Source: a virus (lineage: Duplodnaviria; Heunggongvirae; Uroviricota; Caudoviricetes). Taken from it: a stretch of DNA of 15,816 bases. Below, piece by piece: positions 12,001 through 15,816 of the stretch (positions are counted from its first letter, which is position 1; every line of letters starts with the position of its first letter). The DNA is taken from the IMG/VR virus record IMGVR_UViG_2917408641_000001; one strand, written 5' to 3'. Position numbers: made by a program.

Positions 12001-15000
12001 CTTCAGTAGCTGGTTAAACATGTTGGTAAGTGGATTGCCGCACCCGAACGGCATCGGGTTTATCTGGTAAGAAAAGCGACCGCCTGTTTTGCGCTCTTTT
12101 CTTATGACTGAACCGCTGCGCCAGAGTCGGCGTAACTCCGCATTAATGGCTGTGGTTGGGGTATTCAGTGCTGCGGCGATTTCTCCACCGCTACACCCCG
12201 GATTGGCGGCGATATAGTCCAGAATGGTCATCTGCGTGACTCCTGTACCTGTCGGATAAGGTTCACCCGCACCACATTCGTGGCGCAGAAGTAAGTGCCG
12301 TCAGTGAGATAGATGTGATGTGCATCCTTTTCTGAACGGTGTTTGTCGATTGTGGTAATCAGGCGTTCGTCGACTTCGTATTCACGCCCTCTGGAGGTAA
12401 AACGAACGACAGGAAAATGCTTAATTGCCATTACGCCTCCTTGGCGTGTGCGAATACCTCCGCGAATGCGGATTGTTTTTACATTTTCTTATTTAACCTG
12501 TGGTTTTATTTGCTCTGTTATTCGCCAGTGAAAAAGCGTTCAATCTTTTTTATTGAATGAATAATTCGCATAATCCCAATGGCGCAGGCCACCGAAATAA
12601 TCAGAACAAGCCATGAGATAAATATACTCATGCGATATTCCCCAGCTTATACGGTTCAATATGTTCCCCGCATTCTGCGGCACAGATCAGCTCGGAAAGT
12701 TCGTTAAGTGCATCCAGAGCATCAGCGTAAAAAGCCACGTCATACAGACTCCGGATTGCCCTGGTCAATGAGTCACGGGCTGCACGTTCAGCATGAGCGC
12801 CTGATGCGCTTAAGCGAAAATAAAAACGCTCAAGTGCTTTGTTAATGAGAGTTTTATATTCTTTGCCCATCACAACGCCCTTTAATCTGCTTTCTTAATT
12901 TCAACTTCTGAATCCATACAAATAATTTCGATATAGGGTTCATCGCCATTAGCCTGGCGCGCTTTTTCAGCTTTGCTAATGATTTCTCGTACGGTCTGGT
13001 ACGGAAGTTCCACAAGCAGTCGCGTGCCGTTCAGATAAACGTAAGTGGCTTCGTCGGCTCCGTTTTTACCCGCCGGAGCCACTCCATCAATAGCGGATGT
13101 GCGTAATAACAGTTCACCGCGAAAATCAATAAAACGGATAAATACACCTTGTGCATGGTCTTTGGTCATAAAGCACCTGTTATAAATCAGCCTGTTTAAT
13201 AAAACTTTGTCCGCGAAGCAGACGATCAACCGTGCGTAGTGCTTCGTATAATGTGAAATCCTGCCCGAACTGATTGTCGCCGCTGCTTAGAGCAAAAATG
13301 CGGTTTCCAGTAAACGGATTGCGTGGGCATTTGTGGACCACGATTCCAGCTTTCTCAATCAGCCAGGCATGCTCGCCGATTTGTTTTACTGGGTAGCCAT
13401 CCGGCGTTGCGTGTGTATCACTCAGGCTGTAGCGGATGTTGCTGCGTGATGCACTGGTAGTGAAACGGTTAGCGTGACGTTCAGCACCATTACGAAAGCG
13501 TGAATTACGTTGTTGTTTCATGTTAAAGACTCTGTACAGATTTAATTATTCCGGCATAGCGGCCGAACTCAAAATATTTGCGATTAAATCGCATCGCATT
13601 GTTTTCACGTTTTGCGGACTGCTGGTTCATTTTCGTTTGCCTCCGCACATGAGAATTACGCCGCTTAAGAGGTAACCGAAGTTAATTGATAGTATTACAA
13701 TTAACATAAGGTCCAATTTGTCCATGCCACACATAATTACCCTCATTGCAGTAGTTGTGGTTTATCAGGTTTCTCACCCGATAAACCAGATAACAAACGC
13801 TATAAACATCGCCCCAATAGCTGCCGGGAAAAGCCCTTTGGTATAAGCGGCGATATATTCAATGCTGAGTTCAATAAAGCGTTCTTCATGTCCCGTTAAC
13901 TTACGAAACAAATAGATCGCTATTACGCCTATCTCAATAAAAACAAGGGTCAGAATGGCGCTGATGATATGGCTGGTCATTTATGACTAAAGCCCCAGCC
14001 ACAACAACCATGCATCGCGGCGTTCTTTCGGTTGCTCAAAAAACGCTTTGCGCATGCCTTCGTTAAATGCTGGCAGATATACCCAGTTTTCTGATGCACG
14101 CGTCTTTACTGAACCTGGTTTCACAAAGTCAATTGTCGGTAGCTTTGCTGCGTCAATCATGGTTCTGACTGTGGATTCCTTGCGGCCGATCATCTTGGCG
14201 AATAGTTGATATGGCACCGCTTCAAGTGGATATGGTGCTACCTGAATGAAGCCCCCAAGCTCTGATTCGCTCATTGTGGTAATCTCCCTAATTCGTTCGA
14301 ATGGCTCAAAATGGCTTATATCGGCTTATTTGAGTGTTTTTATGTTTGTGCCCGATGTGGCATGTTGTGATGGAGGATATGCCCGATATGGCATCTTTAT
14401 CAAGCATGGGTGAAAAATTTCGCCTGATTCGTGAAGCAGAAGGTATGACCCGCCAGGAGTTTGCGGATTGTGTTGGGTTGCCTTATGGGACGGTAACTAA
14501 CTATGAGGTGAGGGGGAAGCAAGTAACAGAGGGTGCCTTACTTAAGGTTACGAAACACCCTAAATTTAAGAAATATGCTTATTGGTTATCAACAGATGAA
14601 ACGATGCCGGAGGTTGGGCAAATTTCTCCGGCTCTCTCTCTTGATGGTTCCTGCAATTCGGAGGGAGATCGTGTTTCAACCGAAACAATCCAAAAATTAT
14701 CCCGCTGAGGCCAGAAAACTGGTTAGACCTGCTTTTTGTCTGGTCTGATTATTGCTGGAAAGAGGCTGGAGAAATTGTAGAGCGGTTCATTGGAGGGCTT
14801 CGCAATGTCGATTAAGAAGCTCGAAGATGGTCGTTATTTGCTGGACATCAGGCCGAACGGACGCAAGGGAAAGCGCGTGCGTAAGGTATTTGACAAAAAA
14901 TCGGTAGCGGTGGCCACTGAACGCTACATCATGGCGAACGCTGAAAAGCGGGAATATATACAGGGCTACCGTGATCGTCGAACGCTAAATGATTTGCTTG

Positions 15001-15816
15001 AGTTGTGGTGGATGTATCACGGCCAGCACAGGCGTAAGGCGTAAGGCGGAAGAAGACCGAAAACAACTGCGCAACATAATCAATGAGCTTGGCGCTGATA
15101 TGCAGGCTGTGGATCTTGATAAGCTAAAAATTATCGCGTGGCGTTCTCAAAAGATAGCTGATGGATTGAAACCGTCATCTGCTAACAGATACATGAATCG
15201 GTTATCCGGAATGTTTACCGTACTGAAGAAAATAGGCCTCTGGGATGCAGAACATCCGGTAAGGGGAATTTCTATTCTTTATGTATCTCCACGAGAAATG
15301 GCTTTCCTGTCCCAGAAGGAAGTGGCGTTATTGCTCGATACACTGGAGGGCGATTACTGGCGTGTTGCGCTTTTGTGTTTAAGCACAGGGGCGCGCTGGA
15401 GTGAAGCCTGTAAGCTTCGTGGTGAACAGATAGTTCATAACCGTGTAACGTTTCTTGAAACCAAAAATGGCCGAAAGAGAACAGTGCCAATTTCGCAGGC
15501 AGTTTGTGAGGCGATCAAAACCAGAGAAACAGGCGGCTTGTTTGAGGTGAAGTACCGGGAATTCTGCTTGGCGCTGAAAAGAGTTAAGCCCGATTTGCCA
15601 AAAGGCCAGGCTGCACATGTGCTGTGGCATACGTTCGCCAGCCATTTTGTGATGAACGGAGGAAACATTATTGCGCTTCAGAAGATTCTTGGCCACGCAA
15701 CCATTCAGCAAACAATGGCATATGCACATTTTGCACCGGATTACCTGCAGGATGCGGTGGCCCTTAATCCGCTGAAAGGTGGCGTGAGTGTCCACGCAGT
15801 GTCCACGGGGGATTAA

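What the first reader, a model, noticed from the sequence alone, without database searches (positions are those of the whole stretch)
14805..15816. Integrase inactivated twice: 7-bp tandem duplication frameshift plus active-site Arg to Trp
GGCGTAAGGCGTAA at 15031..15044 is an exact tandem duplication of GGCGTAA. Deleting one copy joins the N-terminal reading frame to the catalytic-domain frame (...HGQHRRKA then EEDRKQLRN...). Separately, the box II motif reads HVLWH where tyrosine recombinases have HxxRH; the TGG at 15625..15627 is one transition from CGG. Two independent lesions imply the element is immobilised and decaying.
Basis: partly seen in the sequence, partly recalled or inferred. Interest (0 to 1): 0.55.

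Follow-up and report, generated by a model that had tools for sequence, protein, structure and literature searches.

The report
Dead integrase in decayed P2-like prophage
The integrase gene of a P2-like prophage remnant in Escherichia marmotae really is broken twice, by a 7-bp slippage duplication and by loss of a catalytic arginine, which is an ordinary case of prophage decay.

Summary
Both lesions are real and sit at the stated coordinates. Window 15030-15048 reads AGGCGTA-AGGCGTA-AGGCG (2.7 copies). About 300 complete E. coli genomes and related phages carry 1.7 copies in an uninterrupted 334-codon integrase gene. Deleting one copy restores a protein identical to that integrase except for R272W (TGG 15625-15627, CGG in relatives). 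R272 is the second arginine of the RKHRH catalytic pentad; it is Arg in 130 of 131 homologues, and the only Trp is this same allele.

Five contigs (NCBI, IMG/VR and Logan sources) carry both lesions, and at least two come from distinguishable strains. That rules out an assembly error. A full-length Trp-only allele also exists, so R272W probably came first.

The host is Escherichia marmotae. The element lies between flk and pdxB and is a ~14.9-kb remnant of a ~36-kb P88-like (P2-family) phage. About 24.7 kb, holding all head, tail and lysis genes, is missing at an ISEc16-like junction, and replication gene A carries a nonsense codon. The C repressor, Cox, 15 other early ORFs, both 19-bp att cores and the arm-type repeats are intact.

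The finding is ordinary and of low interest.

The parts
14805..15044 (+). 5' fragment of the int pseudogene: 79 codons (arm-binding domain plus the start of the core-binding domain), then a premature TAA created by the duplication
   Evidence: the start codon matches the annotated start of intact homologues
15030..15048 (+). Heptanucleotide tract AGGCGTA x2.7; the extra 7-bp copy (for example 15038-15044) is absent from intact relatives, which have 1.7 copies
15046..15816 (+). 3' fragment of the int pseudogene in the +1 frame: rest of the core-binding domain (PF24624) and the catalytic domain (PF00589)
15625..15627 (+). TGG = Trp272 in place of the catalytic Arg II (CGG in relatives), in box II H-V-L-W-H
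15387..15387 (+). The only other difference from the closest intact gene: a synonymous ACA/ACG (Thr) change
15788..15806 (+). Two direct repeats GTGTCCAC..GTGTCCAC inside the 3' end of int; the reverse complement matches the P2-group arm-site consensus tgTGGaCa, so this is the presumed P-arm Int binding site
   Evidence: consensus from PMC3448106; the assignment is an inference
1099..1117 (+). attL core AAAATCCTTGTTGATGAAA, identical to the attR core that lies 183-201 nt beyond the window end (L008 9839-9857); it overlaps codons 2-7 of pdxB
1164..1182 (+). Presumed P'-arm Int binding repeats GTGTCCAC..GTGACCAC
14388..14708 (+). C immunity repressor, intact (100% aa identity to phage PhiR44_2; that phage's 112-aa annotation starts at 14370)
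13987..14274 (-). Cox (excisionase / Pc repressor), intact, 100% aa identity
7883..10678 (-). Replication gene A with nonsense codon Q81* (TAG; window 10436-10438). The gene is intact (931 aa) in the sister assembly SRR6001587
4980..6226 (+). ISEc16-like IS3-family element at the junction where phage coordinates 9393-34058 (all head, tail and lysis genes) are missing
3589..4283 (+). IS1 transposase ORFs (InsA / InsB')
1..996 (-). Host gene flk, the left chromosomal flank; identical to the E. marmotae Flk protein

Best explanation
This is the non-functional integrase gene of a defective P2-family (P88-like, Xuanwuvirus-type) prophage remnant. The remnant is integrated at the 5' end of pdxB in Escherichia marmotae.

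The ancestral gene encoded a 334-aa heterobivalent tyrosine recombinase with an arm-binding, a core-binding and a catalytic domain. It carries two independent lesions:
- A C-to-T transition changed the second catalytic arginine, R272 of the RKHRH pentad, to Trp. This probably happened first.
- Replication slippage on a pre-existing AGGCG-TA-AGGCG repeat added one 7-bp unit. That shifts the frame and places a TAA after codon 79.

The element cannot integrate, excise, replicate (gene A has Q81*) or form particles (about 24.7 kb of morphogenetic and lysis genes is deleted at an IS junction). It is a grounded, decaying remnant.

It still carries an intact immunity switch (C and Cox), a ParM/StbB partition pair, small early ORFs, both att cores and the arm-type sites.

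What is shown: the lesions, their derived state, their presence in independent assemblies, and the extent of the deletion. What is inferred: loss of recombinase activity, the order of the lesions, and the slippage mechanism.
For: - **Lesions present and derived:**. No E. coli complete genome with this int segment has the +7 (0 of 300) or matches the window's 60-mer around the TGG (0 of 303).
- **Family assignment:** PF00589 and PF24624 hits. P2 integrase structure 5c6k at E = 1.8e-84 and HP1 integrase 1aih at E = 2.1e-44, with the H-x-L-R-H box aligned.
- **Arg column:** 130 R and 1 W among 131 homologues, and the W is this same allele. The pentad is described as 'otherwise strictly preserved' in PMC8138268.
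- **Independent assemblies:** NCBI GCA_000807695.3 and an IMG/VR UViG are 100% identical to the window. Logan SRR6001587 carries both lesions while differing by 6 SNPs, a 30-bp indel, an intact gene A and a different left junction.
- **Trp-only full-length allele** exists (P0004, HDX9484782.1).
- **Remnant structure:**
- **Host:**, and at most 89.6% identity of the flanking core genes to any E. coli.
Against: No activity was measured. The order of the lesions rests on a single Trp-only contig whose genomic context could not be fetched, so recurrence of the C-to-T change cannot be excluded. Seventeen neighbouring early ORFs are intact, so part of the remnant may be under selection rather than simply decaying.
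Confidence: 0.93

Rival explanations
1. One or both lesions are sequencing or assembly artefacts, and the gene is intact in the organism.
For: A short repeat is a plausible site for an indel error. No complete E. coli genome shows either lesion.
Against: Five contigs carry the 238-aa Trp fragment. They come from different sources (NCBI assembly, IMG/VR, Logan). SRR6001587 is clearly a different strain (6 SNPs, a 30-bp indel, intact gene A, a different left junction), yet it has both lesions. A 7-bp insertion is not a typical homopolymer-type error.
Confidence: 0.02
2. The heptanucleotide tract is a reversible on/off (phase-variable) switch for integrase expression, changing by +/-7 bp slippage.
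For: Relatives have 1.7 copies and this lineage has 2.7, so the tract has changed length at least once. The 2.7-copy state offers 12 nt of register for slipping back.
Against: Only two states are seen. All 300 E. coli copies have 1.7, and every member of the lesion lineage examined has 2.7. Known contingency loci usually have many more repeat units (established knowledge). The co-occurring R272W would leave an 'on' state catalytically dead. The element also lacks everything needed after excision.
Confidence: 0.03
3. Trp272 is tolerated, or the lesions are selected. In this reading the 79-aa arm-binding peptide, made from the C-int operon, is kept as a decoy that occupies arm-type sites of related incoming phages, or the int and gene A knockouts were favoured to lock in a useful immunity and cargo island.
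For: All three point lesions in the retained 9 kb fall in int (two) and gene A (one), while C, Cox and 15 other ORFs are full length. The 79-aa product holds the whole N-terminal region that lies upstream of the part matched to the P2 Int structure.
Against: int plus gene A make up about 41% of the retained region, so three of three hits there has p of about 0.07 (my arithmetic from the coordinates). No homologue carries Trp. The lineage is rare: the exact sequences are found on only 4 to 6 contigs. There is no sequence variation within the lineage with which to test for selection.
Confidence: 0.04

Closest known systems
Intact integrase of P88-like (Xuanwuvirus) P2-family prophages at pdxB in E. 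coli (WP_000023401.1 in strain CRE1540; phage PhiR44_2 XSB42686.1; Xuanwuvirus P884B11)
   Same: The DNA is 99.8% identical apart from the 7-bp insertion. The gene order is the same (cox, then C and int on the opposite strand, then attR and pdxB), as are the att core and P arm (199/201 identical).
   Different: The window copy has the +7 frameshift and R272W. It sits in E. marmotae, not E. coli, and in a 14.9-kb remnant instead of a ~36-kb prophage.
Bacteriophage P2 integrase (PDB 5c6k / 5dor) and HP1 integrase (PDB 1aih), IntP2 subgroup of tyrosine recombinases
   Same: Clear homology over the core-binding and catalytic domains (E = 1.8e-84 and 2.1e-44). Box II aligns as H-x-L-R-H-[ST]-F-A-[ST]-H-F, and the Tyr-containing Y-A-H-F-A-P motif is conserved. 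The arm repeats match the P2-group consensus tgTGGaCa.
   Different: The catalytic Arg II is Trp and the ORF is split. The attachment site (pdxB 5' end) differs from P2's attachment sites on the E. coli chromosome (the P2 sites are from my own knowledge).
Cryptic or 'grounded' defective prophages of enterobacteria (for example the defective P2-related prophage of E. coli B, or the K-12 cryptic prophages)
   Same: Loss of structural genes, IS insertions, and inactivated integrase and replication genes, with regulatory genes and cargo retained. That these are general traits of such elements is established knowledge, not tested here.
   Different: Nothing qualitative. This is one more instance, in E. 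marmotae.

Membership tests
Tyrosine recombinase, IntP2 (P2/HP1) subgroup | Catalytic-domain and core-binding-domain homology (PF00589, PF24624; similarity to P2 and HP1 integrase structures) | tested here: met
   PF00589 5.3e-21 and PF24624 2.9e-12; 5c6k 1.8e-84 and 1aih 2.1e-44
Tyrosine recombinase, IntP2 (P2/HP1) subgroup | Complete catalytic set R-K-H-R-H plus the Tyr nucleophile | tested here: not met
   R195, K218 (position assigned by motif only), H269, W272, H295 and Y304. Arg II is Trp here; it is Arg in 130 of 131 homologues and in the P2 and HP1 integrases
Tyrosine recombinase, IntP2 (P2/HP1) subgroup | Single uninterrupted ORF joining the arm-binding, core-binding and catalytic domains | tested here: not met
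   The +7 duplication gives a stop after codon 79, and the remainder is in the +1 frame
Tyrosine recombinase, IntP2 (P2/HP1) subgroup | Recombination activity on attP/attB or attL/attR | not testable with these tools
   Needs an excision PCR or an in vitro assay
Complete, non-cryptic P2-like prophage (criteria of PMC3448106) | P2-like gene order with a complete transcriptional switch (C and cox) | tested here: met
   int-C-cox-early ORFs-A synteny; C and Cox are 100% identical in aa to phage PhiR44_2
Complete, non-cryptic P2-like prophage (criteria of PMC3448106) | Structural (head, tail, lysis) genes present | tested here: not met
   Phage coordinates 9393-34058 have no counterpart in the window, and flk lies only about 14 kb from int
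Complete, non-cryptic P2-like prophage (criteria of PMC3448106) | A functional integrase gene | tested here: not met
   Two lesions
Complete, non-cryptic P2-like prophage (criteria of PMC3448106) | Identifiable attL and attR junctions with an identical core | tested here: met
   19/19 identical core at window 1099-1117 and L008 9839-9857. The empty site in K-12 carries one copy, at the pdxB start
Phase-variable simple-sequence contingency locus | A repeat tract whose copy number varies among close relatives or within populations | tested here: not met
   Only two states are seen: 1.7 copies in all 300 E. coli and 2.7 in every member of the lesion lineage examined. Within-population variation could not be tested

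The most novel reading that the evidence does not exclude
The lesions are not pure decay. In this reading, knocking out int (twice) and gene A was favoured because it locks a useful island (C-repressor immunity, ParM/StbB, a DUF4116 cargo protein, a phage-supplied pdxB start) into the E. marmotae chromosome. The 79-aa arm-binding peptide still made from the C-int transcript would then act as a decoy that interferes with integration or excision of related P88-like phages.
Probability: 0.04. Interest if true: 0.4.

Novelty: already known. Interest (0 to 1): 0.12.

Why it matters
The value is mainly for annotation.

- The stretch is listed as a viral contig in IMG/VR, yet it is a dead remnant that cannot excise, replicate or form particles.
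- It is a tidy natural example of two-hit inactivation of a P2-family integrase, and a single-hit (Trp-only) allele survives in the databases.
- Its att cores and arm sites are intact, so it could be used to test excision in trans by a helper phage.
- The prophage supplies a new ribosome-binding site and start codon to the host pdxB gene.

None of this changes current understanding of prophage decay.

Tried and rejected
- The genomic context of the single-lesion allele is therefore unknown.
- **Empty scans.** Exact-pattern scans for the duplicated tract found nothing in the GTDB species representatives or the JGI metagenomes. The IMG/VR scan gave one hit, identical to the window.
- **Short contigs ending at the repeat.** Three short contigs (L005-L007) end at or within two bases of codon 79, and at first looked like evidence of mixed alleles at the repeat. 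I rejected this. An exact-sequence look-up of the 79-aa peptide selects any partial gene that happens to end there, and codons 1-79 are the same with or without the duplication. L007 in fact reads on into the unduplicated sequence.
- **P0003 as a duplication-only allele.** The same ascertainment argument applies to P0003 (ENA contigs of at most 1.9 kb), so it is not counted as a duplication-only allele.
- **Selection for inactivation.** One of only two substitutions hitting a catalytic codon has a chance of roughly 2.7% (twice the 1.3% per substitution). This stops being remarkable once R272W is taken as the ascertained first inactivating hit. Three of three lesions falling in int plus gene A has p of about 0.07. 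I make no claim of selection.
- **Literature.** A search for the assembly accession returned only an unrelated paper.
- **Host species.** Comparing PdxB against the GTDB representatives did not resolve the species: E. ruysiae 91-94%, E. coli K-12 85-91%, E. whittamii 89%, E. albertii 81-88% DNA identity. Exact protein look-ups then named E. marmotae.

Full report
**1. The observation**

The window reads ...CAC AGG CGT AAG GCG TAA GGC GGA AGA... from 15027.

The periodic tract is slightly longer than stated: 15030-15048, AGGCGTA AGGCGTA AGGCG, or 2.7 copies. It is the only period-7 tandem in the window.

An exact 7+7 tandem is not rare in itself. Shuffles of the window give 0.71 per shuffle, so the repeat alone proves nothing.

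The comparison with relatives decides the matter:
- A megablast of 14790-15816 found the gene in 308 complete E. coli genomes. The best hits align 1027 window bases to 1020 bases of an uninterrupted gene annotated 'phage integrase'.
- The three-way alignment with E. coli CRE1540 and phage PhiR44_2 shows a clean 7-base gap in both relatives.
- A 71-base query over the tract found no E. coli genome with the extra unit among 300. The best identity is 90.1%, that is 64/71.

The intact gene already contains AGGCG-TA-AGGCG. The lesion is therefore an expansion from 1.7 to 2.7 copies. That is the expected product of slipped-strand mispairing; the mechanism is my inference.

The N-terminal frame starts at ATG 14805, the annotated start in relatives, and stops at TAA 15042-15044 after 79 codons. 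The rest of the protein continues in the +1 frame to the stop at 15814-15816. Removing one repeat unit gives a 334-aa protein that differs from the CRE1540 integrase at one residue only, R272W.

TGG lies at 15625-15627 and relatives have CGG. None of 303 E. coli genomes matches the window's 60-mer around it, and the best hits differ by one base. The only other difference from the closest intact gene is a synonymous ACA/ACG at 15387.

**2. What the gene is**

The two fragments hit Pfam Int_N (PF24624) and Phage_integrase (PF00589).

The repaired protein matches these solved structures:

| Structure | E-value |
|---|---|
| P2 integrase, 5c6k | 1.8e-84 |
| P2 integrase catalytic domain, 5dor | 1.5e-64 |
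| HP1 integrase, 1aih | 2.1e-44 |

In those alignments H-V-L-R-H-T-F-A-S-H-F lines up with H-A-L-R-H-S-F-A-T-H-F of P2 Int and H-V-L-R-H-T-F-A-S-H-F of HP1 Int. Residue 272 is therefore the second Arg of the RKHRH pentad.

Among 131 full-length proteins from the homologue search and cluster look-ups (52-99% identity), the column is R in 130. It is W only in the allele I asked about.

PMC8138268 describes the pentad as 'otherwise strictly preserved' and mentions weaker conservation in some subgroups only for the first Arg and the first His. It places P2 and HP1 integrases in one subgroup, IntP2. Loss of activity in the Trp variant is thus a strong inference, but it was not measured.

**3. Not an artefact**

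- The 79-aa and the 238-aa (Trp) gene calls are found on NCBI assembly GCA_000807695.3 (contig JNBP01000103.1), which is 100% identical to window 6161-15816.
- They are also on the Logan assembly of SRR6001587.
- IMG/VR contig UViG_2630968558_000012 equals window 6223-15816.
- Five contigs in all carry the Trp fragment.
- SRR6001587 comes from a different strain. It differs by 6 SNPs and a 30-bp indel, has an intact gene A, and continues with phage sequence where the window has an IS element. It still carries both int lesions.

**4. Order of the lesions**

An exact-sequence look-up shows that the full-length 334-aa protein with Trp exists (P0004, HDX9484782.1, on one 340-kb contig labelled E. 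coli). So a Trp-only allele is real.

I found no trustworthy duplication-only allele. The 238-aa fragment with Arg (P0003, on short ENA contigs) can be a partial gene that happens to begin at that Met.

The likeliest order is therefore R272W first and the duplication second. The context of P0004 could not be fetched, so this remains an inference.

**5. Surroundings: a remnant, not a prophage**

*Location.* Window 1-996 (minus strand) is flk. In E. coli K-12, flk and pdxB are neighbours. Aligning the K-12 region shows that the element lies between them.

*Attachment sites.* The element is bounded by a 19-bp direct repeat, AAAATCCTTGTTGATGAAA. One copy is at window 1099-1117 (attL) and the other lies 183-201 nt beyond the window end (attR; L008 9839-9857). 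K-12 has one copy, over codons 2-7 of pdxB. At attR the phage DNA supplies AAGGAG and a TTG start, which gives a 385-aa PdxB instead of the 378-aa native form.

*What is left.* Against the 35,994-bp phage PhiR44_2 the window keeps three pieces:

| Window coordinates | Phage coordinates | Identity |
|---|---|---|
| 6586-15816 | 9393-183 (early region) | 95.2% |
| 4639-4981 | 34398-34058 (343 bp) | 91.3% |
| 1095-1191 | 35994-35898 (about 97 bp next to attL) | 88.7% |

*What is missing.* About 24.7 kb holding every head, tail and lysis gene. An ISEc16-like IS3-family element (about 4980-6226) sits at the junction. An IS1 lies at about 3589-4283.

*Gene A.* The replication gene carries Q81* (CAG to TAG; window 10436-10438). 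This nonsense codon is absent from SRR6001587.

*What is intact.* All other retained early ORFs are full length, and C and Cox are 100% identical in protein to the phage. The P arm between int and attR is 199/201 identical to the intact CRE1540 prophage.

*Arm-type sites.* A 19-nt motif with two GTGWCCAC repeats occurs at 15788-15806 (inside the int 3' end) and at 1164-1182. Its reverse complement fits the P2-group arm-site consensus tgTGGaCa (PMC3448106). The recombination sites thus look intact. The element might still be excised if a related phage supplied Int and Cox; this is an inference.

**6. Host**

The flanking core genes pdxB and usg are at most 89.6% identical to any of 5426 complete E. 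coli genomes. Exact protein look-ups name Escherichia marmotae for Flk, Usg, the 385-aa PdxB and the DUF4116 cargo protein (AUT25704, AUT25726, AUT25725, AUT25706).

The int gene itself is 99.8% identical to the E. coli prophage copies apart from the insertion. This fits recent movement of this phage type between Escherichia species.

**7. Comparison with what is known, and verdict**

This is a member of the P2/HP1 integrase family by descent. It fails two defining features of a working member: the complete catalytic set and an uninterrupted ORF.

By the criteria of PMC3448106 for a complete P2-like prophage, the element:
- passes on the transcriptional switch and on the att junctions;
- fails on structural genes and on the integrase.

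Inactivated integrases in IS-ridden, truncated prophages are commonplace (established knowledge).

Three rivals remain: an artefact, a slippage switch, and a selected decoy or lock-in. Together I give them under 10%. Interest is low.

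Noticed in passing
window 1099-1117 and L008 9815-9857 (attR, just past the window end): The att core overlaps codons 2-7 of pdxB. At attR the prophage supplies a new Shine-Dalgarno sequence (AAGGAG) and a TTG start, giving a 385-aa PdxB instead of 378 aa. At attL the native start is left heading a short dead-end ORF.
   Followed up: partly
window 10436-10438 (minus strand), within gene A 7883-10678: Replication gene A has a nonsense codon, Q81* (CAG to TAG). It is absent from the sister assembly SRR6001587 (L004), where A is 931 aa. This is a third inactivating point lesion in the remnant.
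   Followed up: yes
window 4980-6226 and 3589-4283: An ISEc16-like IS3-family element sits exactly where about 24.7 kb of phage structural genes is missing. An IS1 lies nearby. In SRR6001587 the phage sequence continues at least 252 nt past this junction (including a ClpX-type zinc-finger ORF), so the junction differs between the two strains.
   Followed up: partly
window 1786-3198 (minus strand): A 470-aa ORF with three DUF4116 repeats at its C-terminus lies next to attL. It replaces the ORFs found at this end of phage PhiR44_2. The exact protein is on record in only a few E. marmotae / 'E. coli' contigs. Its function is unknown and it may be phage cargo.
   Followed up: partly
window 14349-14392 (cox-C intergenic region) versus L004 about 8376-8390: Two direct repeats, GCCCGATGTGGCAT and GCCCGATATGGCAT, lie 30 bp apart in the window and in the intact E. 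coli prophage. They may be the C-repressor operators. SRR6001587 has lost one repeat and the spacer (a 30-bp deletion), which would alter its immunity switch.
   Followed up: no
window 15788-15806 and 1164-1182: A 19-nt motif with two GTGWCCAC repeats is present once near each end of the element (0 expected by chance). It matches the P2-group arm-site consensus tgTGGaCa. One copy lies inside the last codons of int.
   Followed up: partly
whole window; L008 9815-12051: The host is Escherichia marmotae, not E. coli (flanking core genes at most 89.6% identical to 5426 E. coli genomes). The int gene is 99.8% identical to E. coli prophage copies integrated at the same pdxB site, which suggests recent exchange of this phage between species.
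   Followed up: partly
window 4310-4516: A 68-aa ORF matches only the C-terminal third of DUF4875 (profile positions 102-156 of 156). It is probably a gene fragment left between the IS1 and the ISEc16-like element.
   Followed up: no
window 6471-7749 (minus strand): A ParM-like (319 aa) and StbB-like (104 aa) plasmid-type partition pair is kept intact in the remnant, as in intact P88-like phages. The StbB is only 56% identical to that of PhiR44_2, while ParM is 98% identical, which suggests a mosaic boundary.
   Followed up: no
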